The position numbers and the translations under genes are program-made. Positions 16,329 to 61,955 of a stretch of DNA of 64,000 nt are shown here, one piece after another. Within the stretch, counting starts at the first letter, position 1, and the number at the start of each line of letters is the position of its first letter. The stretch comes from Candidatus Micrarchaeota archaeon (GTDB taxonomy: Archaea; Micrarchaeota; Micrarchaeia; Burarchaeales; JACRGF01): positions 10,759 to 74,758 of the forward strand of contig JACRGF010000048.1 in assembly GCA_016212395.1 (NCBI GenBank), read 5' to 3'. The notes under the pieces were generated by a model. That model was not told the origin of the DNA and ran no database searches. It saw only the letters and a list, made by a program, of their open reading frames with translations.

Positions 16329-16362
16329 CATTCGACCGAAGACTCGCATTTCTCGTCATTCG

Positions 16363-16508
16363 GTCGACACAGTCGACTGCGGTCGACTTGTCGACATTTC
16401 GACTGCAGTCGAAATCGTCGAATACTCGAGCGACAAAACCGTCGGAGCGGTTTTGTGCTCCACAAGAGCGATGCATCGCTCTTGTCGGACAAGTCAGCGT
16501 AGACTTGT
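16363..16508 (+). repeat. cluster of six short perfect hairpins (GTCGAC type and ACAA...TTGT type)
   Basis: GTCGAC-ACA-GTCGAC; ATTTCGACTGCAGTCGAAAT; ACAAAACCG/CGGTTTTGT; ACAAGAGCGATGCATCGCTCTTGT; ACAAGTC/GACTTGT. Confidence 0.7.
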
Positions 16509-16524
16509 CGATGCTAAAATTAAT

Positions 16525-16640
16525 GCGGCTGTAGTCTAGCCTGGTAGGACTCGAGGTTGCCAATCTCGTAACCCGGGTTCAAACACCCGTCGCTGAAGCA
16601 ACGCGCTTTCAGCAACGTGCTGAAAATCCCGGCGGCCGCA
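16525..16640 (+). tRNA. tRNA-Gly(GCC) with ~43-nt intron in the T-loop (exons 16525-16583 and 16627-16640)
   Basis: Hand-folded cloverleaf: acceptor GCGGCUG/CGGCCGC, anticodon loop UUGCCAA, T-stem CCGGG/CCCGG split after UUCAAA; no encoded CCA. Confidence 0.85.
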
Positions 16641-16668: not shown

Positions 16669-16728
16669 CCAACAAGTCAGACGCATCTGACTTGTGGACC
16701 ACAAGTTCGTAACGACGAACTTGTCGGT
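16669..16728 (+). repeat. two tandem CCA(A)CAA...TTGTGG hairpins
   Basis: CCAACAAGTCAGA-CGCA-TCTGACTTGTGG and ACCACAAGTTCGT-AACG-ACGAACTTGTCGGT. Confidence 0.7.
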
Positions 16729-16785
16729 TCAGTTTTGAAAGGCAAAAAAACGGAAAACGCAATACAGAAAACGGAAAACTGAAAA

Positions 16786-16869
16786 TCCCGGCGACCGCAA
16801 TTTTTTTAACGCGGTTGTAGTCTAGCCTGGTAGGACTTTGGCCTTCCAAGCCAATGACCCGGGTTCAAA
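16786..16869 (+). tRNA. tRNA-Gly(UCC), 3'-piece-first gene (circularly permuted or split): nt 60-73 at 16786-16799, 11-nt linker, nt 1-59 at 16811-16869
   Basis: The 5' piece folds to position 59 (anticodon loop CUUCCAA) and then diverges. The upstream UCCCGGCGACCGCA completes the T-stem and acceptor stem, including U5-A68. Confidence 0.75.
16801..16807 (+). terminator. T7 tract immediately after the 3' piece of tRNA-Gly(UCC)
   Basis: GCGACCGCA-A-TTTTTTT; oligo-T is the archaeal termination signal. Confidence 0.4.
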
Positions 16870-16998
16870 TGACCTTTTTTCTTTCTTTTTCTCTCTGAAA
16901 AAGAAAGAAAAAACCTCAACAACCAACAAAAGCGATGTGTCGCTTTTGCGGTCCACAAATTCGATTCGTCGAATTTGTTGGAAAAAAGAAAGAAAAAA
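16870..16998 (+). repeat. structured intron-like module flanking the 5' piece of tRNA-Gly(UCC)
   Basis: Y-run/R-run hairpin (16875-16913), then two ACAA hairpins, then a polypurine run. Same architecture as intron 18535-18676. Confidence 0.65.
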
Positions 16999-17008
16999 GC
17001 AAAAAAAT

Positions 17009-18430: not shown

Positions 18431-18720
18431 TCCCGGCGACCGCATGATTTTTTTGTGGTTCTCGGTTTTGAGTCAACAGTTTTGGAAACCCCAAAACTGA
18501 AAACTCGAAACTCGACACTGCGGTTGTAGTCTAGTAACCTTTCTTTTTTCTTTTTCGAGTAGAAAAAGAAAAAAGAAACGTTAACGACCAACAAAAGCGA
18601 CGCATCGCTTTTGTGGTCCACAAAAACGTCACGACGTTTTTGTTGGAAAGAAAAAAGAAAAAGAAAGGTTGGACATCTTGGTAGGACATGGGCTTCCCAA
18701 GCCTATAACCCGGGTTCAAA
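18431..18720 (+). tRNA. tRNA-Gly(CCC), 3'-piece-first gene with an extra D-loop intron: nt 60-73 at 18431-18444; nt 1-15 at 18520-18534; intron 18535-18676; nt 16-59 at 18677-18720
   Basis: Pieces sum to 59+14 nt; anticodon loop UUCCCAA; acceptor GCGGUUG/CGACCGC; the D-loop intron forms a BHB (GUCU/GGAC helix flanked by AG|U and AU|C bulges). Confidence 0.75.
18448..18454 (+). terminator. T7 tract immediately after the 3' piece of tRNA-Gly(CCC)
   Basis: GCGACCGCA-TGA-TTTTTTT. Confidence 0.4.
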
Positions 18721-18722
18721 AT

Positions 18723-18770
18723 AAAGTTTTTTCTTTCTTTTCGGCGATCCGAAAAGAAAGAAAAAACTTT
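18723..18770 (+). repeat. perfect 22-bp polypyrimidine/polypurine hairpin directly after the 5' piece of tRNA-Gly(CCC)
   Basis: AAAGTTTTTTCTTTCTTTTCGG-CGAT-CCGAAAAGAAAGAAAAAACTTT. Confidence 0.8.
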
Positions 18771-18894
18771 AATGAAAAAAGAAAGAAAAGAAGAACGAGA
18801 AAAGAAAAAGAGGTACTAAAAGAAAGAAAAGAAAAAAGAAAGAAAAAAAGAAACGCTGAAAAAAAGAAAAAAGAATTAGGAACTGCTTGTTTTT

Positions 18895-20505
18895 TTATCT
18901 TCGCGCGAAGCCGCCCATTCCGACTCTTTGGAATGGAGCTGAGACTGCTTCCCGCTGCATTTGCACTCTCCGCAGGAACGCTTGCGCGTCCCTCGGCTTG
19001 GCTTTCAAGCCTATCGACAATTCTAAAACGCTTGAAGCGCGGACTCCTTCCACGCCGCGCGCCTTCAAATCGTTAGCCATTCGAACGTCTTGCTCGGCGT
19101 GCATGTGGATTACTTGCCTGCCTTTTTCGTTCAACTCTTTGATTTCTTGCGGGGTGAGCCAGTCGCGCACGTCTTCGTTGAGCCAAGGCATTTTCCTGCC
19201 AGCTTGAACGTCTTTGTAGAGTTCTTTAAGGCGCGTGAAAACATGGCTGCGCGTGCCTTCAGTGCCCACTTTAAGCACTTCGCCGTCTCCTTCGAAAACC
19301 TTGTTTCCGTCAGCGTCGAAATGAAATTTTGGGACTATCACGCGCGTGAAGCAAACGAGCCCGGCGTAATTGCCGGTCATGAACGCGCCGAGCACGTTTT
19401 CTCCGGCAAGGTCTATGGGCAAGCCGCCCCTGCCTGTAGAGCGCGTGAATAGTTTCACCGCCTCCAAAGCAGAGTCCGGAAGAGAAAACATTGCCTCAGC
19501 CATTTCAATGCCTTCAGCGCGCGCGAGTTCAAGCGTTATGGAACGCGTGACGCCAGGCAGGCACTTTCCCTCCACAACGTTGGGAGTAACGAGAACGTCC
19601 GAACCACCGTGCCTCACGACTGCAAACAAGTTCTCGCCAGTGCCCTCGCTAATCCTGCCGTCAGGCTGGGGAAGCAACGCGTCCTCGCAAACCAATTTCT
19701 CCAATCGGGAAACCTCGCACCTTATTCCATCTGCACGAAATTGATCAGGTGCACTGAGCCCGACAGTTTTCATTTCGTCATTCAATTTTCTTATTTTCGC
19801 GTGCACTGCTTCGTTGTGCAAACGCATTTGCTGGCGCGCCATTTTCGAAGCGTCGTAATTGGCGAACGACTTTGTGCTCAAGCTCGCGCCCTCGCGCGTC
19901 AACTCAACAGGCAAAAACAACGCAGCGCCCTCTTTTTCCGCTTGCTCGCCCAAGTAGAGGCCGACTTTCATCATGCTCGTGCCAAGCTCGAACTGGACAG
20001 GGTTGCCCAAGCCAACGCCGTTAGTCATGTCAGCAAGCCTGCTTCGCACGTAAACCCTGTCTGTCTTTCCGCCAGCACTCGCGAAATTTACTTTAACGGT
20101 TTTTCCGTCTTCGCACAAAATCCAGTTGTTTAACGCGAGCAACTGCATTCGCGCGCCGATGACTGCTTCCAAAGAATGCTCTGGATGCTTGAAGCCCTTT
20201 GTTCTCGCGCCCCATAAAAGCCGGGCGACGTTTACTGCAGGGTGAAAAAAAACAGCTGACTCGCCGTCACTGCCAACCACTCTCAAGACAGACTCGCCCT
20301 CGAACAACCCTAAGCCGTAATCAATGCTCGCGGACTGCGTTGGCACAGGGTTAGAGCGCGCGAGCCTCACTCGGTCTATTCCCACTAAAACAAGAGTACT
20401 CGAAAAATTAGGCAAACTGCCGTCGCGCATTCCAGCAAGCATTTCAGAGTATAACGCTTCAACTGACGAAGTGTCCAATTCCCCCACGCAAACGCACCCC
20501 ACCAA
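18895..20505 (-). CDS. fold-type IV PLP enzyme, branched-chain aminotransferase-like, atypically long (536 aa)
   Basis: YGLGLFEG, STKSFANY (compare IlvE KAGGNY with the PLP lysine), EGTGENLFAV, LPGVTR; start uncertain (TTG 20505 or ATG 20442). Confidence 0.6.
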   Translation of the reverse strand: MVGCVCVGELDTSSVEALYSEMLAGMRDGSLPNFSSTLVLVGIDRVRLARSNPVPTQSASIDYGLGLFEGESVLRVVGSDGESAVFFHPAVNVARLLWGARTKGFKHPEHSLEAVIGARMQLLALNNWILCEDGKTVKVNFASAGGKTDRVYVRSRLADMTNGVGLGNPVQFELGTSMMKVGLYLGEQAEKEGAALFLPVELTREGASLSTKSFANYDASKMARQQMRLHNEAVHAKIRKLNDEMKTVGLSAPDQFRADGIRCEVSRLEKLVCEDALLPQPDGRISEGTGENLFAVVRHGGSDVLVTPNVVEGKCLPGVTRSITLELARAEGIEMAEAMFSLPDSALEAVKLFTRSTGRGGLPIDLAGENVLGAFMTGNYAGLVCFTRVIVPKFHFDADGNKVFEGDGEVLKVGTEGTRSHVFTRLKELYKDVQAGRKMPWLNEDVRDWLTPQEIKELNEKGRQVIHMHAEQDVRMANDLKARGVEGVRASSVLELSIGLKAKPRDAQAFLRRVQMQREAVSAPFQRVGMGGFARR

Positions 20506-22795: not shown

Positions 22796-22958
22796 CCAAC
22801 AGGGGTTTAAAAAGGGAAAAAAAGGAGAGGAAAAACAAACTGAAGGAAAAAGAAAAAAAAACAACGAGTGGAATTCAGAAAAAGAAAGAAAAAAACGAAT
22901 GAGAAAAGAATAGAAAAATTAGAAAAAAAAGAAAGGAAAAAAAGAGGGAATTGCAAGG

Positions 22959-23926: not shown

Positions 23927-24724
23927 TTGGCTGTTGCGAAGAAGCGTGAAGCATTTGGAGAAGGCGTTGCCGTGCAGGCAAGTGCGAGGAAGCGTGAAGC
24001 AGTTGGAGAAGGCAGTAGCAGTGCTGTGCAGGCAGTTTCAAAGAAGCGTGAAGACAGCAGGGGAAGTTCGAGCAGTCTTGCGCAGGGGAAGCAGTTCACG
24101 AAGACAGTTATAGATAGGATGGTTGAGATAGTTAGGGAGAAGGGGAGGGTTACTGTCGAGGAGCTTGCGGGGATTATTGGCTTGGAGCGGAATGAAGTCG
24201 AGCAGCTTGCCGGGGTTCTCGAGGAAAGCGACTTGATTGCAGTGAGGTATTCGTTGCTTCACCCTGGGAGGACAGAACTTGTCTCGAAGGAAACTTCAGC
24301 GAAAGGCGAGGAGAGCAGGGAGAGCCTGCGCGAAGTAATGAGTGGCATTGGCAGGAATGTTGATGAAAGCGAGAAAGCGTTTTACGAGATTTACGGGGAC
24401 TTGCTGAAGCGCTTGAGCAATGTTGAAGGAGGCCTTTTGAAAATAGAGCGGGAGAAAAACATTTCCATTGAGGCAGTTGATTTTCTGCTTGAGGAGAGTT
24501 CGAAGCTCGAGGACTCGTTGAGAAACTTTGACGTGAAAGTGGACGCGTTCGAGAAAAAAATCGAGGCGGTGCGGAGGAAAATCGCGTTTATAAAAGCTAA
24601 CGCGATGAAAGCGAAAAAGCCCGGAGTTGGAAGCGGAATTTCAGCTTTTTTCGAGAGGATAAAGCGCGCGTTTCAAAAGGGGAAAAACGGTTCGCGATTT
24701 GAAAATATTTTGAGTGGTGTTTGA
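23927..24724 (+). CDS. winged-helix plus coiled-coil protein at the head of the pilus locus; N-terminal tandem repeats
   Basis: RMVEIVREKGRVTVEELAGIIGLERNEVEQLAGVLEESDLIAV (wHTH-like). Start ambiguous: TTG 23927, or first in-frame ATG 24119. Confidence 0.45.
   Translation: MAVAKKREAFGEGVAVQASARKREAVGEGSSSAVQAVSKKREDSRGSSSSLAQGKQFTKTVIDRMVEIVREKGRVTVEELAGIIGLERNEVEQLAGVLEESDLIAVRYSLLHPGRTELVSKETSAKGEESRESLREVMSGIGRNVDESEKAFYEIYGDLLKRLSNVEGGLLKIEREKNISIEAVDFLLEESSKLEDSLRNFDVKVDAFEKKIEAVRRKIAFIKANAMKAKKPGVGSGISAFFERIKRAFQKGKNGSRFENILSGV
23936..24066 (+). repeat. about 2.5 copies of a 51-57 bp tandem repeat
   Basis: GCGA[AG]GAAGCGTGAAGCA[TG]TTGGAGAAGGC... repeated; all frames open across it. 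Confidence 0.7.
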
Positions 24725-24726
24725 AA

Positions 24727-26295
24727 ATGGGCGAGAAGAGCAGGGAGAGCGTGCTTGAAAAGTATACTGTTATTGCTGATGGAGTGCCTGCTGAAGTTGT
24801 CATTTCGAGGAGGGAAGGCGAGTTTGTTGACTCGTACGAGATTTCTACAGTGAAGTTTCAGAAGCCCACGCAGGCTGTTATCGATCATATTAGGCAGAAG
24901 ATTTTGGAGGACGTGAACTTGAAGGCTTCAGAGGTTTTGGACGCGGAGTCTATGGACACGCTTCACCACAGGTTCGTGTTGAAGGCAGGCGAGCTTGTGA
25001 ACAAGGAAATGTTCAACGTTACTCCGACGACGCGTTCTATTATCGTGGGGAAGCTTGCGCATGAGTTGCTTGGCTTGGGCGACTTGGAATTGTTTCTGGC
25101 TGATGACAAGCTTGAAGAGATAGTAGTTAATTCCTGCAAGGAGCCGGTGTGGGTTTACCACAAGAAGCACGGGTGGCTGAAGACGGATTACGTTATTCCG
25201 AGCGAGGAGAGCATTCATAATTTTGCGTCTATTATCGGGAGAAAGTCAGGCAGGCAGGTGAGCACGCTTTATCCTTTGCTTGACGCGCACCTCGTGCAGG
25301 GCGACAGGGCGAATGCTACGCTTTACCCGATTTCAGCAAAAGGAAGCTGCATCGTGATTAGAAAATTTGCGCGCAACCCGTGGACGATAGCAAGCCTCAT
25401 TCCGCCCGTGGGCAATACGCTGAGCGTTGAAGTCGCGGCGTTGCTGTGGCTGTGCATACAGTACGAGTTGAACATCGTCGTGGCGGGAGGCACTGCGAGC
25501 GGAAAGACGAGCATGCTGAACGCGCTCATGATGTTCTGCCCTCCGAACCAGCGGATTATTTCCATTGAGGACACGAGGGAAATTTACTTGCCTGATTTTC
25601 TTCACTGGACTCCGCTCGTAACGCGTTCTTCGAACACTGAAGGCAAAGGCGAAGTGACGATGCTTGACTTGATGGTGAACAGCCTGCGCATGAGGCCTGA
25701 CCGAATCGTCGTAGGGGAAATCAGGAGGCAGCGCGAGGCTGAAGTGCTGTTTGAAGCAATGCATACTGGGCACAGCGTTTACTCGACGATTCACGCTGAC
25801 AACGCGGAGCAGGTGAAGAACAGGATGATTACTCCGCCGATAAGCTTGCCTGAAACGCAGTTGTCTGCAGTGCACCTCGTGCTCGTGCAGTACAGGCAGA
25901 GGAGGACTGGCTTGCGTCGCGTGCTGGAAGTGGCGGAGTTCGTTCCGCAAGGCGCAGGCGTTTCGCTCAACAGGCTTTACCAGTGGAACGCGCGCAAGGA
26001 CGCGCTTGAAAAAGTAGGGGAATTCAAAAGGATTATTGACGAGCTCGCGTTGTATTCCGGAATGAGCCCGAAAGAGATAGCTCACGATTTGGAGGAAAAA
26101 GAGGCAGTGCTGGAATGGGTTGCTGAAAACAAGATTTCAGGGGTTAACGGCGTGGGGACGGTTATTGCGAGTTATTACAGGGAAAAGGAAAAGTTGATGA
26201 ACGTCGTGAAAAACAAAGGCAAGCCTGAAGAAATAATTTCCGCGAGAGAAGCTGGAGAAGAAAAAAATGTTGGCGATGCAGGGGTAAAAATATGA
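24727..26295 (+). CDS. type IV filament / Tad-like secretion ATPase (FlaI/CpaF/VirB11 family)
   Basis: Walker A GGTASGKTS, ISIEDTREI, RPDRIVVGEIR, His box TGHSVYSTIH. Confidence 0.9.
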   Translation: MGEKSRESVLEKYTVIADGVPAEVVISRREGEFVDSYEISTVKFQKPTQAVIDHIRQKILEDVNLKASEVLDAESMDTLHHRFVLKAGELVNKEMFNVTPTTRSIIVGKLAHELLGLGDLELFLADDKLEEIVVNSCKEPVWVYHKKHGWLKTDYVIPSEESIHNFASIIGRKSGRQVSTLYPLLDAHLVQGDRANATLYPISAKGSCIVIRKFARNPWTIASLIPPVGNTLSVEVAALLWLCIQYELNIVVAGGTASGKTSMLNALMMFCPPNQRIISIEDTREIYLPDFLHWTPLVTRSSNTEGKGEVTMLDLMVNSLRMRPDRIVVGEIRRQREAEVLFEAMHTGHSVYSTIHADNAEQVKNRMITPPISLPETQLSAVHLVLVQYRQRRTGLRRVLEVAEFVPQGAGVSLNRLYQWNARKDALEKVGEFKRIIDELALYSGMSPKEIAHDLEEKEAVLEWVAENKISGVNGVGTVIASYYREKEKLMNVVKNKGKPEEIISAREAGEEKNVGDAGVKI

Positions 26296-27161
26296 GGATT
26301 CCTTTGGCGTTGCTTCCGCCGAAAGCGCTTGAAAGCATTTCAAGGCAGATGGTTGGAGTTGGCGCGTTATTGTGCAAGATGTTTCTAAGCCTGAAGATGG
26401 ACTTGTTCCAGGCAGGCTTTGATTTTGCTCCGAAAAACTATTGCGCTGCAGCGTTCGCTTCTGCAGCGCTGAACGCAATAGTTTTTTTCTCGCTCGTGGA
26501 GCTGGTTGGTTTTGCTGCGAAAAGCCAAATGCACGAGCTCGCGGCAATTGCAGCTGTTGCAGTAGGCGGATTTTCTTTCCTGTCCGCGTTGATGTACCCG
26601 AAAATGATTGCGCGCAAGAGAGTGCGCGCGCTTGACACGAACTTGATTCCCGCGATGAGGCAGATGCTCATAGAACTGCGCTCTGGAGTAACGCTGTTTC
26701 AGGCAATGCAGAGCGTAACAAAAGATTACGGGGAAGTGTCAGTGGAGTTCGCGCGGATTGTAGAACGCATAGACATGGGAGTCGCGGAAATGGTCGCGCT
26801 GGGTGAAGCAAGCAAGCGGAATCCATCCCCGAATTTCCGCAGGGTGCTGTGGCAGGTTTCGAACGCAGTGGTTGCAGGCTCTGATGTCACGAACGAGTTG
26901 GAAGCGATAGTGAATGACTTGACGAAGGAAAAAATGGATGATATTAGGAGGTACGGGCAGGAGTTGAACCCGTGGACAATGGCGTACATGATGTGCACTG
27001 GAGTCATTCCTTCGCTCGGTTTGAGCATTGCAATCATATTGCTTTCTTTCATGAGCGTCGGGTTTCCGAAAATAATTCTGCCCATGACGATAGTGGGGAT
27101 AGTGCTGTTCAACGTTTTTTTCATGAACTTCATCAAAAACAGGAGGCCCGTGATAGATTAG
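26292..27161 (+). CDS. pilus platform protein, single T2SS-F domain (TadB/EpdJ-like)
   Basis: ATGA overlap with the ATPase; cytoplasmic helical domain flanked by TM segments. Confidence 0.7.
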   Translation: MRIPLALLPPKALESISRQMVGVGALLCKMFLSLKMDLFQAGFDFAPKNYCAAAFASAALNAIVFFSLVELVGFAAKSQMHELAAIAAVAVGGFSFLSALMYPKMIARKRVRALDTNLIPAMRQMLIELRSGVTLFQAMQSVTKDYGEVSVEFARIVERIDMGVAEMVALGEASKRNPSPNFRRVLWQVSNAVVAGSDVTNELEAIVNDLTKEKMDDIRRYGQELNPWTMAYMMCTGVIPSLGLSIAIILLSFMSVGFPKIILPMTIVGIVLFNVFFMNFIKNRRPVID

Positions 27162-27176
27162 GGAGCGTGTGAAAAA

Positions 27177-28187
27177 ATGGTTGAATTGATTGACAAGCTT
27201 CTTTCAGTGACTGGCGCGATAGCTCCGAAAAGCATGCTGGATAGCTTTGACAAGACGCTTGCAGAAGCGGATTTCGACACGTCCGCAAAAAAATACGCGG
27301 GCTTCATGCTGTGGAGCGCGCTGCTCATTGCAGTGCTCGTGTTTTTCATTGCTTGGAATTTCATTTCCGTAGAATACAGCCTTGCAGTGTCAGCGTTCTT
27401 TTTCGTGCTGGGCATTGCAATGTTTTACTTGATAGTGTCGATGATTGCGGACTCTCGCGCGAAAAAAATAGATGAGGTTTTGCCTGACGCGATTTCAATG
27501 ATTTCAGCAAACGTGCGCGCCGGAATGACTGTTGAAAATGCAGTGCTCGTGTCCGCTCGCCCTGAATTCGGCCCGCTCGAGGAGGAGATAAGGCTTGCGA
27601 GCGCGAAAACTTACGGAGGAATGAGCATGAGCCAAGCGTTCGCCGAGATGGGCGGGCGCGTGCGCTCGAACCAGTTGAAGCGCACTGTTAAAATGTTTAT
27701 AGAAGGAAGCAAGCTCGGAGGTCAAATGGCGCAGTTGCTGAACGAGATAGCGCGCGACTTGCGCGAGCTTTCCGCCTTGCGCAGGGAAATACAAAACGCG
27801 ACGCTCACTTACACGATATTCATATTGTTCAGCACAGTAATAGCATCGCCGGTGCTGTTCGCAACGTCTGTTTACTACGCGCAAGTGAACGAGAAGGTTA
27901 CAAGCAAAATAGCGTTGAGCGGCGAGCTTCCGACAGCAGGCATGGGGGGTTTCGTGCCGAAGTACAACAAGCAGAACGCCATTTCCGCAGAAGAATTCTA
28001 CTCGTTCGCAATAGCAACAGTGCTCGTAACGTCGTTTTTGAGCGCGCTCGTGCTCGCGCTCATCAGGCACGGGAAAGCAACTGCAGGATTGAAGCAAGCG
28101 CCAATGTTTGCGTTCGCGGCAGTGGCAGTGTTTCTCGGAACTCATTATGCGCTTACACTGTTCTTTAAAGGATTCACGGGATTTTGA
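27177..28187 (+). CDS. pilus platform protein, single T2SS-F domain (TadC/EpdK-like)
   Basis: Second half-size FlaJ/TadC-like membrane protein 15 nt downstream. Confidence 0.7.
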   Translation: MVELIDKLLSVTGAIAPKSMLDSFDKTLAEADFDTSAKKYAGFMLWSALLIAVLVFFIAWNFISVEYSLAVSAFFFVLGIAMFYLIVSMIADSRAKKIDEVLPDAISMISANVRAGMTVENAVLVSARPEFGPLEEEIRLASAKTYGGMSMSQAFAEMGGRVRSNQLKRTVKMFIEGSKLGGQMAQLLNEIARDLRELSALRREIQNATLTYTIFILFSTVIASPVLFATSVYYAQVNEKVTSKIALSGELPTAGMGGFVPKYNKQNAISAEEFYSFAIATVLVTSFLSALVLALIRHGKATAGLKQAPMFAFAAVAVFLGTHYALTLFFKGFTGF

Positions 28188-41835: not shown

Positions 41836-41903
41836 ATTGTAGAGTGAGGTTGGAAGACAATACTGAAAATCCGAAACTCAAAACTTCTAAACTCGAAACG
41901 TTT

Positions 41904-50340: not shown

Positions 50341-50416
50341 AAAAACGAGACGAGTCAAAACCAGCCAAGGCAACTCAAAACTGGAAACTGCAAAACTGAA
50401 AACGAATAGTGGTGTT

Positions 50417-53849: not shown

Positions 53850-53917
53850 TTACTTATTTACAGTAACGAAACAAAACCTGAAAACAGAAAACTGGAAACT
53901 GAAAACATTATAATCAC

Positions 53918-54274
53918 GCCGGGGTGGCAGAACCTGGTTAATGCGTACGCCTGGAATTAACCTTTTTTTCTTTCTTTTCTAGGAGAAAAGAAAGAAAAAA
54001 ACGTTAACGAAAAAAGAAAGAAAATGTAAAGAAACGTTAACGAAAAAAGAAAGAAAAACGAATGAAAAAAGAAAAGAAAACAACAGTAGTATTCATCAAA
54101 AAAAGAAGTGATTTCTTTTTTGGAATCTGGAGAGCGTATGGCTCTAACGGGCCGCATGGGTTCAAAAGGAGTTTTGAAGTTTAGAAGTTTTGAAGTTTCG
54201 TGTAGATGTTTTTAAGGGAATGCGAAACTCCAAAACCCGAAACTTCGAAGCCCGTGAGAATCCCATCCCCGGCG
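53918..54274 (+). tRNA. tRNA-Ser(GGA) with two introns: anticodon-loop intron about 53957-54132 and T-loop intron 54167-54260
   Basis: Acceptor GCCGGGG/CCCCGGC, discriminator G, anticodon stem UACGC/GCGUA with CUGGA in the loop, long variable arm GGCUC/GGGCC, T-stem AUGGG/CCCAU; exons sum to about 87 nt. Confidence 0.8.
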
Positions 54275-56791: not shown

Positions 56792-56855
56792 AAGCACTCG
56801 CAGAACGGTTTTCACACTGCTGAAAACTGGAAACAGAAAACCGAAAACGTTTGCT

Positions 56856-56994
56856 GCGGGGGTGTCAGAGCTAGGTCAAATGAGCAGGACTGAGGCTCCT
56901 GTGCCTTTAGTGGCTGCGCGAGTTCAAATCTTCGCAAACTCCGCTTGCGATTTTTAAACGGAGTGAAGCGGAGTTGAAAATCTCGTCCCCCGCA
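56856..56994 (+). tRNA. tRNA-Leu(GAG) with ~52-nt T-loop intron (about 56929-56980)
   Basis: Acceptor GCGGGGG/CCCCCGC, A73, anticodon loop CUGAGGC, long variable arm, T-stem GCGAG/CUCGU split after UUCAAA. Confidence 0.85.
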
Positions 56995-57005
56995 TTAGTG
57001 TTTTT

Positions 57006-57061
57006 GGTTTAGAAGTTTTGGAGTTTTGTAGTTTAGAGGTTTGGAAGTTTTGGAATTTGGG
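57006..57061 (+). repeat. seven exact-phase tandem octamers
   Basis: GGTTTAGA AGTTTTGG AGTTTTGT AGTTTAGA GGTTTGGA AGTTTTGG AATTTGGG. Confidence 0.85.
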
Positions 57062-57094
57062 AATTGTTTGTTCAAATGAAAAAGGTGTGGTGGT

Positions 57095-61410: not shown

Positions 61411-61851
61411 ATGAAGAAAAAAAACAGCAAAAAACTAAAAGCGAGAGCAAACGCTAAACGCCCAGCAAGACTTAAAGCAAAAACTGTGAAGAAAAACAAA
61501 AAGAACACTGGCGCGAAAATAAAAGAAAGAATCGTAAAAAAAAATGCGAAGACGCTTGGCGGGAAAAAAAGCGCGCTGAAAAAAACAGTCAAGCCAAGGG
61601 GCACTTCACAACGCACGCCCATCAATCCGTCGCGCGCGCGAGTTGAAATCCGCAGGCTGCTTATTGCATTGAACAGGACGAACCAGCGCGACAAAGTCGG
61701 GTTGGCGAACCTGCGCGACGAAGTAAACGATTTCGCGGACAAGCTGCGCAGGTCAAGCCCTGACGCGTACACTGAATTCGAGCTTGAAATAAAACTGATT
61801 TACGAGAGAGTATTCAACAAGCTCACAGGCGAGCACGTGTTTGTTGAATGA
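61411..61851 (+). CDS. hypothetical very basic protein (K-rich N-terminal half)
   Basis: MKKKNSKKLKARANAKRPARLKAKTVKKNKK...; about 70-aa helical C-terminal domain. Confidence 0.4.
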   Translation: MKKKNSKKLKARANAKRPARLKAKTVKKNKKNTGAKIKERIVKKNAKTLGGKKSALKKTVKPRGTSQRTPINPSRARVEIRRLLIALNRTNQRDKVGLANLRDEVNDFADKLRRSSPDAYTEFELEIKLIYERVFNKLTGEHVFVE

Positions 61852-61955
61852 AAAAAAGAATAAAGAAATAGAAAAAGAATAAGAGAAAAAAAAGTAAAAA
61901 TAAAAAAGTCGGAAAAAGAAAGGAAACGGTTTTTCGGGGTGTGATTTGCAGCTTT

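What the first reader, a model, noticed from the sequence alone, without database searches (positions are those of the whole stretch)
18535..18676. Related modular inserts at three different tRNA positions: evidence for intron mobility
Three inserts share a modular plan.
- The D-loop intron of Gly(CCC): TAACC-[TTTCTTTTTTCTTTTTC-GAGTA-GAAAAAGAAAAAAGAAA]-CGTTAACGA-[CCAACAAAAGCGA…TGG][TCCACAAAAACGT…TTGGA]-polypurine.
- The sequence after the T-loop break of Gly(UCC), 16870-16998, has the same order of parts: Y/R hairpin, CAACAA, two ACAA hairpins with nearly identical first stems, then a polypurine run.
- The anticodon-loop intron of tRNA-Ser (from 53958) starts with the same TAACC-[Y-run hairpin]-CGTTAACGA and then repeats ACGTTAACGAAAAAAGAAAGAAAA twice.

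Homologous inserts in different tRNAs at positions 15/16, 37/38 and 59/60 are what is expected if BHB introns transpose between tRNA genes. That has been proposed for Thermoproteales. Here it involves unusually long, structured, R/Y-asymmetric elements.
Basis: partly seen in the sequence, partly recalled or inferred. Interest (0 to 1): 0.75.

Follow-up and report, generated by a model that had tools for sequence, protein, structure and literature searches.

The report
Shared hairpin cassettes in tRNA introns
A 142-base intron in the D-loop of a glycine tRNA gene of an uncultivated ultrasmall archaeon (Micrarchaeota) is a copy of hairpin "cassettes" also found at other break points of other tRNA genes, and it is missing from the same gene in a relative, so tRNA intron sequence is being copied to new positions in this lineage.

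Summary
Positions 18535-18676 are a 142-nt bulge-helix-bulge (BHB) intron at position 15/16 of tRNA-Gly(CCC) in a Candidatus Micrarchaeota genome. It aligns without gaps to the sequence after the 59/60 T-loop break of the neighbouring permuted tRNA-Gly(UCC): 79% over 126 nt, z=29, and z=19.5 for the non-low-complexity centre.

The opening cassette is U-R-A-M-N, a perfect 16-18 bp pyrimidine:purine hairpin, then C-N-U-Y-A-A-Y. It occurs 8 times in 136 kb of Micrarchaeota DNA, always abutting a tRNA 5' splice or break site (D-loop 2, anticodon loop 3, T-loop 3). It occurs 0 times in 723 kb of control DNA selected for similar hairpins.

The Gly(CCC) gene of a syntenic relative has no D-loop intron and carries the cassette after its T-loop break. 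A more distant relative has only short, cassette-free introns.

Intragenomic copying of intron sequence is therefore supported. The mobile unit, however, is a cassette rather than a whole BHB intron:
- the 3' ends are site-specific;
- one "insert" is the trailer of a permuted gene;
- the paired CCAACAA...TTGTGG hairpins are inverted copies that also occur outside introns.

The copying mechanism is unknown. I class this as a new variant of a known kind.

The parts
18431..18444 (+). 3' piece of permuted tRNA-Gly(CCC) (T60 to A73, TCCCGGCGACCGCA). It is preceded by the CTGAAAA 3' splice motif and followed by a T7 run.
   Evidence: Its acceptor strand CGACCGC matches GCGGTTG.
18445..18519 (+). Linker between the 3' and 5' pieces. 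It contains T7, the hairpin 18477-18499 and CNGAAAA heptamers.
18520..18534 (+). tRNA-Gly(CCC) exon 1 (positions 1-15).
   Evidence: ARAGORN cloverleaf after in-silico splicing.
18535..18676 (+). D-loop (15/16) BHB intron, 142 nt. This is the finding.
18535..18587 (+). Opening cassette: TAACC, Y arm 18540-18556, loop, R1 arm 18562-18578, then CGTTAACGA 18579-18587. UAAC pairs with GUUA, which extends the hairpin.
18588..18646 (+). Hairpin pair A (18588-18616, bulged A on the 5' side) and B (18618-18646, bulged T on the 3' side). They are inverted copies of one ~29-nt imperfect palindrome.
18647..18670 (+). Polypurine tract R2. It is an exact mirror of R1 and can also pair with the Y arm (19 Watson-Crick pairs, 1 G.U and 1 mismatch over 21 positions). 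Its end, GAAAGGUU 18663-18670, forms the outer BHB helix with AACCUUUC 18536-18543.
   Evidence: Direct reading. Constrained fold.
18671..18676 (+). GGAC (pairs with D-stem GUCU 18529-18532 to form the 4-bp central helix) plus AU of the 3' bulge AU|C. GGTTGGACAT 18667-18676 is a 9/10 copy of exon GGTAGGACAT 18680-18689.
18677..18720 (+). tRNA-Gly(CCC) exon 2 (positions 16-59). It ends at the T-loop break GGGTTCAAA|.
18721..18880 (+). Gly(CCC) 59/60 trailer: the cassette A-TAAAG, Y:R hairpin, CTTTAATGA (18721-18775), then about 100 nt of polypurine arrays.
16786..16869 (+). Permuted tRNA-Gly(UCC): 3' piece 16786-16799, 11-nt T7 linker, 5' piece 16811-16869.
16870..16999 (+). Gly(UCC) 59/60 trailer, the paralogue of the D-loop intron. 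In order: TGACC; Y:R hairpin 16875-16913; CCTCAACAA; hairpin A 16923-16951; hairpin B 16953-16981; R2 16982-16999.
16525..16640 (+). tRNA-Gly(GCC) with an ordinary 43-nt 59/60 intron (16584-16626) and no cassette.
16430..16488 (+). A+B hairpin pair upstream of Gly(GCC), outside any intron.
16669..16727 (+). A+B hairpin pair downstream of Gly(GCC), outside any intron.
53957..54132 (+). tRNA-Ser(GGA) 37/38 intron, 176 nt. In order: the cassette T-TAACC, Y:R hairpin 53963-54001, CGTTAACGA 54002-54010; a 24-mer repeated at 54001 and 54034; polypurine; the reversed R:Y hairpin 54099-54121; the site-specific end CUGG-AG| 54127-54132.
54167..54260 (+). tRNA-Ser 59/60 intron, 94 nt. It forms a long GTTTTGA/TCAAAAC-type hairpin and has no Y:R cassette.
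56856..56994 (+). tRNA-Leu(GAG) with a 52-nt 59/60 intron (56929-56980) and no cassette. The orthologous intron in GCA_053535415.1 does carry a Y:R cassette.

Best explanation
What it is. The region is a spliceable BHB-type intron in the D-loop of a circularly permuted tRNA-Gly(CCC) gene of a Micrarchaeota archaeon. It is built from members of a lineage-specific family of hairpin cassettes that are copied between the intervening sequences of different tRNA genes.

Proposed splicing (inferred from the sequence, not shown experimentally):
1. In the precursor, D-stem GUCU pairs with intronic GGAC to make the 4-bp central helix.
2. AG|U and AU|C form the two 3-nt bulges.
3. AACCUUUC pairs with GAAAGGUU to make the outer helix. 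That is, the start of the pyrimidine arm pairs with the end of the terminal purine tract.
4. A broad-specificity splicing endonuclease cuts in the bulges and RtcB-type ligase joins G15 to C16. ARMAN-2, a member of this phylum, has the epsilon2 type of endonuclease.

Origin (inferred from comparison):
- The ancestor carried the cassette set (pyrimidine:purine helix enclosing the inverted hairpin pair) after the 59/60 break of the Gly genes.
- In the window's lineage a copy was placed in the D-loop.
- A near-duplicate of the adjacent D-arm strand (GGTTGGACAT / GGTAGGACAT) supplied the site-specific 3' end that makes the insert spliceable.

Role of the opening cassette. At every copy it abuts the 5' cleavage site and probably stands in for the outer BHB helix. 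The copying mechanism itself is not determined. I favour DNA-level copying (ectopic recombination or template switching between the repeated tracts) over an RNA-mediated route.
For: - In-silico splicing gives perfect cloverleafs for all five tRNAs of the window and for five genes of the relative.
- The BHB pairing is readable in the sequence. A fold constrained to it is only 4 kcal/mol above the minimum free energy (-64.9 vs -69.0).
- The intron and the Gly(UCC) trailer are homologous: 79% over 126 nt ungapped, E 2e-29, z=29; centre z=19.5.
- The cassette with its flanks occurs 8 times in 136 kb of Micrarchaeota loci. Every copy is on the tRNA sense strand and starts 0-1 nt after a 5' splice or break site, at three tRNA positions. 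This includes tRNA-Leu of the distant MAG JACRGE01, which has D-loop, anticodon-loop and T-loop introns. There are 0 hits in 723 kb of control loci that each contain a similar Y:R hairpin.
- In 64 kb plus 9 kb of flank, the four long Y:R hairpins occur only at tRNA breaks.
- The syntenic relative GCA_053535415.1 has Gly(CCC) with an intact D-loop and the A+B hairpins in the 59/60 trailers of both Gly(UCC) and Gly(CCC).
- In that genome the Leu 59/60 intron and the Gly trailers share a cassette (ATAAGATCC...TCTTAT...CTTCCAAAAGAAAA), while the window's Leu intron lacks it.
- The distant relative GCA_038871515.1 has short cassette-free introns.
- The 10-nt exon-like 3' end of the intron is shown.
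- 59/60 introns with relaxed BHB motifs and an epsilon2 endonuclease are documented for ARMAN-2 (PMC3239211).
- Similar introns at different tRNA positions were interpreted as transposition in Thermoproteales (Fujishima 2010, as summarised in PMC4033280).
Against: - Only one outgroup genome shows Gly(CCC) without the D-loop intron, so loss there is not excluded.
- The closest relative's contig starts inside the gene and is uninformative.
- There is no expression or splicing data.
- The endonuclease type of this genome was not seen.
- The exon-side helix of the BHB is only 1 bp, so the motif is relaxed.
- Homology stops short of the 3' splice site, so a whole intron did not simply move.
- The A/B hairpins also lie outside introns.
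- Y:R stems contain no G.U pair in about 160 bp. This fits DNA-level palindrome maintenance better than purely RNA-level selection.
Confidence: 0.6

Rival explanations
1. The cassettes are small non-autonomous DNA elements, comparable to REP/BIME or MITE elements. They would be mobilised or copied at the DNA level, for example by a Y1/IS200-type transposase or by hairpin-mediated template switching, and would land in any tolerant non-coding DNA. tRNA introns, leaders and trailers would simply be the places where they survive, and splicing would be incidental.
For: - Hairpins A and B are inverted copies of one imperfect ~29-nt palindrome, as in BIMEs.
- Copies lie outside introns: on both sides of Gly(GCC), 3' of Leu in L129, in a leader in L128, and in an intergenic region with no recognisable tRNA gene in L125.
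- In L125 the A+B pair sits inside the loop of a Y:R hairpin that is uninterrupted in the Leu intron of the same genome.
- The stems are perfect palindromes with almost no G.U pairs.
- L129 shows hairpin insertions flanked by duplicated tRNA 5' ends.
Against: - The flanked Y:R cassette is always on the tRNA sense strand and starts exactly at the 5' cleavage site (8/8). Random DNA insertion does not predict that.
- Copies are few and clustered at tRNA loci. None occurs in roughly 70 kb of other sequence.
- There is no conserved flanking tetranucleotide.
- No transposase appeared among the 20 window proteins scanned.
Confidence: 0.2
2. There is no copying between sites. The introns resemble each other because this lineage's splicing machinery selects for a pyrimidine:purine hairpin next to the 5' cleavage site, and because slippage generates polypurine tracts. 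The similarity would be convergence plus low complexity.
For: - The polypurine parts match ordinary intergenic and coding tracts.
- Short Y:R hairpins open many introns in distant Micrarchaeota.
- The arm sequences differ between orthologous Ser introns, always with perfect compensation.
Against: - The mixed-sequence centre of the D-loop intron and the Gly(UCC) trailer is 53/68 identical with no indel (z=19.5).
- The 14 nt of non-repetitive flanks are identical between the D-loop intron and the Ser intron.
- Control hairpins of the same composition never carry these flanks (0 in 723 kb).
Confidence: 0.07
3. The cassette set (purine:pyrimidine closing helix plus two bulged hairpins) is a functional stable RNA released from tRNA precursors by the splicing endonuclease. 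It could be a protein-binding or triplex-forming RNA. Its presence at several tRNA sites would reflect selection for expression rather than selfish spread.
For: - Architecture is conserved, with 12/24 compensatory pairs over 7 copies.
- Bulge positions are conserved.
- The palindromic CGUUAACG is conserved across genera.
- R2 is an exact 17-nt mirror of R1 in the D-loop intron (direct reading).
- The precursor fold z-scores are about -6.7.
Against: - There is no Rfam match.
- Cassette content turns over between close relatives at orthologous sites.
- Cassettes are absent from a related genus.
- Covariation can equally arise from quasipalindrome correction in DNA.
Confidence: 0.1

Closest known systems
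Transposed non-canonical tRNA introns of Thermoproteales (Fujishima et al. 2010, Mol Biol Evol 27:2233; summarised in PMC4033280 and PMC3239211)
   Same: Similar intron sequences occur at different positions of different tRNA genes in one genome. They are patchily distributed among relatives, and the host has a broad-specificity endonuclease.
   Different: - The host is a different phylum (DPANN Micrarchaeota).
- The introns are much longer (142-176 nt) and are composed of separable hairpin cassettes.
- Homology covers the 5' end and body but not the 3' splice end.
- The same cassettes occur in trailers of permuted genes and, in part, outside introns.
59/60 and other non-canonical introns of ARMAN-2 (Ca. 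Micrarchaeum acidiphilum), cut by the epsilon2 EndA (PMC3239211, PMC12397907)
   Same: Same phylum. Introns in the T-loop at 59/60 with relaxed (hBH) motifs, and multiple introns per tRNA.
   Different: Here every tRNA in the window is broken at 59/60 and two are permuted. A conserved pyrimidine:purine cassette at the 5' cleavage site is not mentioned in the ARMAN papers I searched.
Circularly permuted tRNA genes of Thermofilum pendens and Cyanidioschyzon merolae (PMC3218864, PMC3978253)
   Same: The 3' part lies upstream of the 5' part on one strand, the junction is at 59/60, and extra introns coexist with the permutation.
   Different: - The linker carries a T7 run.
- CCA is not encoded.
- The leader and trailer show no long complementarity.
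- The trailer is a long structured module that is homologous to an intron elsewhere.
REP/BIME elements of bacteria (pairs of inverted imperfect palindromes)
   Same: Hairpins A and B are inverted copies of one imperfect palindrome and occur in several non-coding sites.
   Different: Copy number is low, copies cluster at tRNA loci, there is no conserved flanking tetranucleotide, and no RAYT-type transposase was seen. The resemblance rests on my own knowledge of REP/BIME elements, not on a tool-based test.

Membership tests
Archaeal BHB tRNA intron | The insert lies inside a tRNA gene and its removal restores a canonical cloverleaf. | tested here: met
   exons 18520-18534 + 18677-18720 + 3' piece give tRNA-Gly(CCC). 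The same holds for Ser, Leu, Gly(GCC) and Gly(UCC).
Archaeal BHB tRNA intron | Two 3-nt bulges carry the cleavage sites and are separated by a 4-bp helix. | tested here: met
   GUCU 18529-32 pairs with GGAC 18671-74. The bulges are AG|U and AU|C (direct reading). The constrained fold is 4 kcal/mol above the MFE.
Archaeal BHB tRNA intron | Flanking helices on both sides (strict hBHBh'). | tested here: inconclusive
   The intron-side helix is 8 bp (18536-43 with 18663-70). The exon-side helix is only about 1 bp, so the motif is relaxed. For Ser 37/38 and for the 59/60 sites, no intron-end helix forms and the 5' hairpin takes its place.
Archaeal BHB tRNA intron | Cleavage by EndA and ligation by RtcB in vivo. 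| not testable with these tools
   No transcript data are available and the endonuclease gene is not in the window.
Transposed tRNA introns (sensu Fujishima 2010) | Significant sequence similarity between introns at different positions of different tRNAs in one genome. | tested here: met
Transposed tRNA introns (sensu Fujishima 2010) | Presence/absence difference at the orthologous site in related genomes. | tested here: met
   Gly(CCC) of GCA_053535415.1 has an intact D-loop. This rests on one outgroup only.
Transposed tRNA introns (sensu Fujishima 2010) | The similarity spans the whole intron, including both splice ends. | tested here: not met
   Homology starts at the first intron base but ends before the site-specific 3' end (GGAC-AU, CUGG-AG, UGAA-AA).
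Circularly permuted tRNA gene | A 3' segment lies upstream of the matching 5' segment on the same strand, and together they form a complete tRNA. | tested here: met
   Acceptor-stem complementarity assigns each 5' piece to the 3' piece just upstream of it, in two species.
Circularly permuted tRNA gene | A single precursor is processed through a circular intermediate. | not testable with these tools
   The T7 run in the linker could terminate archaeal transcription, so a split (two-transcript) reading is not excluded, especially for Gly(CCC) with its 75-nt linker.
REP/BIME- or MITE-like DNA repeat | Imperfect palindromes in inverted pairs, dispersed in non-coding DNA. | tested here: inconclusive
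   Inverted pairs: yes. Dispersal: seven pairs seen, six of them next to tRNA genes and one intergenic.
REP/BIME- or MITE-like DNA repeat | A cognate transposase is present in the genome. | not tested
   None was found among the 20 window proteins scanned. The rest of the genome was not available.
Self-splicing or protein-coding mobile introns (group I/II, homing-endonuclease introns) | A ribozyme core or an intron-encoded ORF. | tested here: not met
   No Rfam family reached threshold and there was no ribozyme hit. The only overlap with an ORF of at least 100 aa is the first 8 nt of 18669-19076, which runs on through the polypurine tract.

The most novel reading that the evidence does not exclude
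The flanked pyrimidine:purine cassette is a protein-less, self-propagating intron seed. It would insert exactly at sites that can be cut by the lineage's relaxed-specificity splicing endonuclease, for example by ligation of an excised cassette RNA to a cleaved tRNA followed by copy-back to DNA, or by template switching that also duplicates the neighbouring exon strand. In doing so it would create new BHB introns and drive the extreme fragmentation, including permutation, of tRNA genes in this Micrarchaeota clade.
Probability: 0.2. Interest if true: 0.85.

Novelty: new variant of a known kind. Interest (0 to 1): 0.6.

Why it matters
How archaeal tRNA genes acquire non-canonical introns, and how they become split or permuted, is an open question. 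So far the transposition idea rests on sequence similarity in Thermoproteales.

This locus adds several things:
- a second, unrelated lineage showing the same phenomenon;
- a dated gain: present here, absent in a syntenic relative, with short ancestral introns in an outgroup;
- a recognisable cassette whose 5' end coincides with the cleavage site;
- a junction that looks like a duplicated exon strand.

Together these give concrete, testable hypotheses for the mechanism of intron birth. The locus also shows that an intron and the trailer of a permuted gene are interchangeable carriers of the same sequence, which links intron gain to gene permutation. In practical terms, standard tRNA finders miss nearly all tRNAs here. 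ARAGORN found one of the five, and called it wrongly.

Tried and rejected
- Rfam at gathering and at permissive thresholds returned only chance microRNA-like hits on the hairpins and sub-threshold tRNA hits.
- My scan of metagenome contigs with the bare Y:R hairpin pattern was far too unspecific. I reused those loci as a negative control.
- A candidate tRNA fragment on the minus strand at 28.2 kb turned out to be plain intergenic sequence.
- A purine-motif triple helix (R2 as a mirror of R1) was considered. The same tract also pairs conventionally with the pyrimidine arm and then completes a BHB. The two readings cannot be separated from sequence, so I prefer the conventional one.
- H/ACA or C/D guide RNA identity was rejected by eye: no pseudouridylation pocket, no ACA box and no C/D boxes.
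- Assembly artefact was considered and rejected. A chimeric join would not leave exon ends that splice to a perfect cloverleaf with a BHB at the junction. Independent Logan contigs break at these loci, and the look-up meant to check this returned nothing.
- The extra 9 kb to the right of the window held no further tRNA or cassette.
- Look-ups with ORF-finder start codons failed for the ADP-PFK protein.
Full report
**Setting.** The window is archaeal. It encodes aIF5B, ABCE1, Cbf5, SecY, a ribosomal-protein operon and an ADP-dependent kinase. It belongs to a Candidatus Micrarchaeota MAG: the kinase is 100% identical to NCBI protein HY992_04795, on a 93,166-nt contig. ARAGORN reports a single, mis-called tRNA and Rfam reports nothing at its thresholds.

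Reading the sequence and splicing it in silico shows five tRNA genes. All five fold as perfect cloverleafs once the inserts are removed:
- Gly(GCC): 16525-16583 / 16627-16640.
- Gly(UCC): 3' piece 16786-16799, lying upstream of the 5' piece 16811-16869.
- Gly(CCC): 3' piece 18431-18444, then exons 18520-18534 and 18677-18720.
- Ser(GGA): 53918-53956 / 54133-54166 / 54261-54274.
- Leu(GAG): 56856-56928 / 56981-56994.

Every one is interrupted in the T-loop at 59/60, with consensus TTCAAA|N ... TGARAA|T. The intronic UGAA can pair with T-loop UUCA, giving a 4-bp helix between two 3-nt bulges next to the T-stem. Introns at 59/60 with such relaxed motifs, and a broad-specificity epsilon2 endonuclease, are documented for ARMAN-2 of the same phylum (PMC3239211). 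Gly(UCC) and Gly(CCC) are circularly permuted at 59/60, the same junction as in Thermofilum pendens and Cyanidioschyzon (PMC3218864).

The finding's coordinates, 18535-18676, are exactly the D-loop (15/16) intron. Its parts, in order:

| Part | Coordinates |
|---|---|
| TAACC | 18535-18539 |
| 17-bp perfect pyrimidine:purine hairpin | 18540-18578 |
| CGTTAACGA | 18579-18587 |
| Two 12-bp hairpins, each with one bulged base | 18588-18616 and 18618-18646 |
| Polypurine tract | 18647-18670 |
| GGACAT | 18671-18676 |

- The sequence after the T-loop break of Gly(UCC) (16870-16999) has the same parts in the same order. It aligns to the intron without a single gap: 79% over 126 nt, E 2e-29.
- Against dinucleotide shuffles the score is 29 sd above the mean. 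For the 68-nt centre, which is not low complexity, it is 19.5 sd above (53/68 identical).
- The Ser 37/38 intron shares the first 63 nt at 78%. The arms are low complexity, but the flanks TAACC and CGTTAACGA are identical.
- CGTTAACGA occurs three times in the window, all in tRNA introns, against 0.25 per strand expected.
It aligns with the Ser intron over 147 nt.
- The polypurine tails also match unrelated intergenic and Lys/Glu-coding tracts, so I give them no weight.

**The intron is spliceable.**
- D-stem GUCU (18529-18532) pairs with intronic GGAC (18671-18674).
- AG|U and AU|C are the two 3-nt bulges.
- AACCUUUC (18536-18543) pairs with GAAAGGUU (18663-18670).
- This is a BHB with a good intron-side helix and a weak exon-side helix.
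- A fold forced into this shape costs only 4 kcal/mol more than the minimum free energy.
- In that fold the pyrimidine arm is shared between the near purine arm and the terminal purine tract. The terminal tract is both an exact mirror of the near arm and a near-perfect Watson-Crick partner of the pyrimidine arm.
- The last ten intron bases, GGTTGGACAT, are a 9/10 copy of exon bases GGTAGGACAT thirteen bases downstream. So the site-specific 3' end looks like a duplicated D-arm strand.

**The opening cassette is a real, splice-site-bound family.**
- Every copy is on the tRNA sense strand and starts 0-1 nt after a 5' cleavage site.
- By position: T-loop three times, D-loop twice, anticodon loop three times.
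- The same pattern finds none in 723 kb of unrelated metagenome loci, each of which holds a similar hairpin.
- Two of the eight copies are in tRNA-Leu(GAG) of the distant MAG JACRGE01. That gene has introns in the D-loop, anticodon loop and T-loop, all on this plan.
- In the window plus 9 kb of extra flank, long pyrimidine:purine hairpins occur only at tRNA breaks.
- The first four intron bases pair with the bases after the purine arm: UAAC/GUUA, UAAA/UUUA, UGA/UCA, UAAAG/CUUUA. The cleavage site therefore sits at the foot of a 20-22 bp hairpin.
- I infer that this hairpin takes the place of the outer BHB helix at sites such as Ser 37/38 and the 59/60 breaks, where the intron ends do not pair.

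**Comparison with relatives gives polarity.**
- *GCA_053535415.1* (kinase 64% and Cbf5 77% identical; same gene order).
  - All three Gly genes are permuted.
  - Gly(CCC) has an intact D-loop.
  - The hairpin pair lies in the 59/60 trailers of both Gly(UCC) and Gly(CCC), enclosed by a pyrimidine tract and a purine tract.
  - Its Ser 37/38 intron opens with TAACC-hairpin-CGTTAACGA, as in the window.
  - Its Leu 59/60 intron carries a cassette shared with the Gly trailers of that genome, whereas the window's Leu intron is unrelated and cassette-free.
- *A closer relative (SRR22387921).* Its Ser cassette has the flank type of the window's Gly(CCC) trailer. Its Gly(CCC) trailer has the flank type of the window's Gly(UCC) trailer.
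- *GCA_038871515.1, a more distant genome (Cbf5 60%).* It has only a ~12-nt Ser 37/38 intron, an intact Ser T-loop and a ~19-nt Leu 59/60 intron, with no cassette.
- *Conclusion.* Short introns came first and cassettes expanded in the window's clade. The D-loop intron of Gly(CCC) is most simply a gain by copying the cassette set that ancestrally followed the 59/60 break.

- The shared unit is not a whole BHB intron. Homology begins at the first intron base but stops before the 3' end, which is specific to each site.
- The two ACAA hairpins are inverted copies of one ~29-nt imperfect palindrome. Besides the D-loop intron and the 59/60 trailers they occur on both sides of Gly(GCC), 3' of Leu, in a leader, in an intergenic region with no recognisable tRNA gene, and as a single-hairpin intron in the anticodon stem of Gly(UCC) in MAG JBFMEM01.
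- Seven copies of the pair show 97.6% pairing, and 12 of 24 pairs have compensatory changes (0/500 shuffles reach this).
- Almost no G.U pairs occur: 3 of 162 cells, and none in about 160 bp of pyrimidine:purine stems. Perfect palindromes of this kind can be maintained in DNA by template switching, so the covariation does not prove an RNA function.
- No ORF lies within the intron; only the first 8 nt of an ORF-finder call (18669-19076, across the polypurine tract) overlap it. No ribozyme was detected, and no transposase or reverse transcriptase appeared among the 20 window proteins scanned.

**Verdict.**
Intron-borne sequence has clearly been copied between tRNA sites in this lineage, and one new intron has arisen that way.
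- The movable units are hairpin cassettes, at two of the three positions they colonised pre-existing introns, and the route (RNA or DNA) is open.
- The closest precedent is the intron transposition inferred for Thermoproteales (Fujishima 2010; PMC4033280).
- The differences are the phylum, the long modular structure, the splice-site-anchored cassette, the exon-derived 3' end and the link to permuted genes.
- I rate it a new variant of a known kind, with interest 0.6.

Noticed in passing
window 16525-16640, 16786-16869, 18431-18720, 53918-54274, 56856-56994: All five tRNA genes are interrupted at T-loop position 59/60, and standard finders miss them. Gly(UCC) and Gly(CCC) are circularly permuted, with a T7 run after the 3' piece. 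In relative GCA_053535415.1 all three Gly genes are permuted. In the papers I read, archaeal permuted tRNAs were reported only for Thermofilum pendens.
   Followed up: partly
window 16750-16785, 18490-18515, 41860-41900, 50370-50402, 53873-53905, 56818-56848: Tandem heptamers CNGAAAA (3-5 copies) precede tRNA 5' ends, tRNA 3' pieces and some protein genes. At 59/60 sites the last copy supplies the UGAA of the 3' splice motif. Complementary GTTTTNNA arrays follow Leu (57000-57065) and open the Ser T-loop intron (54170-54200).
   Followed up: no
window 16330-16430: A TCGAC-rich stretch of nested palindromes lies upstream of Gly(GCC). Similar TGAATCGA...TCGAT hairpins occur upstream of tRNAs in the relative.
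   Followed up: no
L129 5990-6080 and 8990-9140 (GCA_053535415.1): Partial duplications of the 5' end of tRNA-Ser (32 nt) and tRNA-Leu (13 nt) flank inserted hairpin elements. This looks like insertion with target duplication just upstream of the genes.
   Followed up: no
window 53951-53957 and 54121-54132: The Ser 37/38 intron ends with TGGAAT-CTGGAG, two near copies of the anticodon-loop sequence CTGGAA(T). An alternative splice at 31/32 would give the same tRNA with G37, which is the state seen in the distant relative L138.
   Followed up: partly
L125 640-1100 (GCA_053535415.1): An intergenic region without a recognisable tRNA holds three hairpins of the A/B family: one A-type hairpin and an A+B pair. 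They sit inside larger nested palindromes (CACGCCGTGAC...GTCACGACGTG) that resemble a long hairpin in the Ser intron of the same genome. It may be an unrecognised structured RNA or a fragmented RNA gene.
   Followed up: no
window 22800-22950 and 61850-61930: Long intergenic polypurine arrays on the plus strand resemble the tails of the tRNA inserts, for example AAAAAGAAAGAAAAAAACGAATGAGAAAAG at 22877 against the Ser intron at 54045. Polypurine tracts are therefore a general feature of this genome's non-coding DNA.
   Followed up: partly
window 24721-28187: A type IV pilus/archaellum-like ATPase (T2SSE) gene is followed by two T2SSF membrane-protein genes. This is ordinary gene content, recorded only for context.
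   Followed up: no
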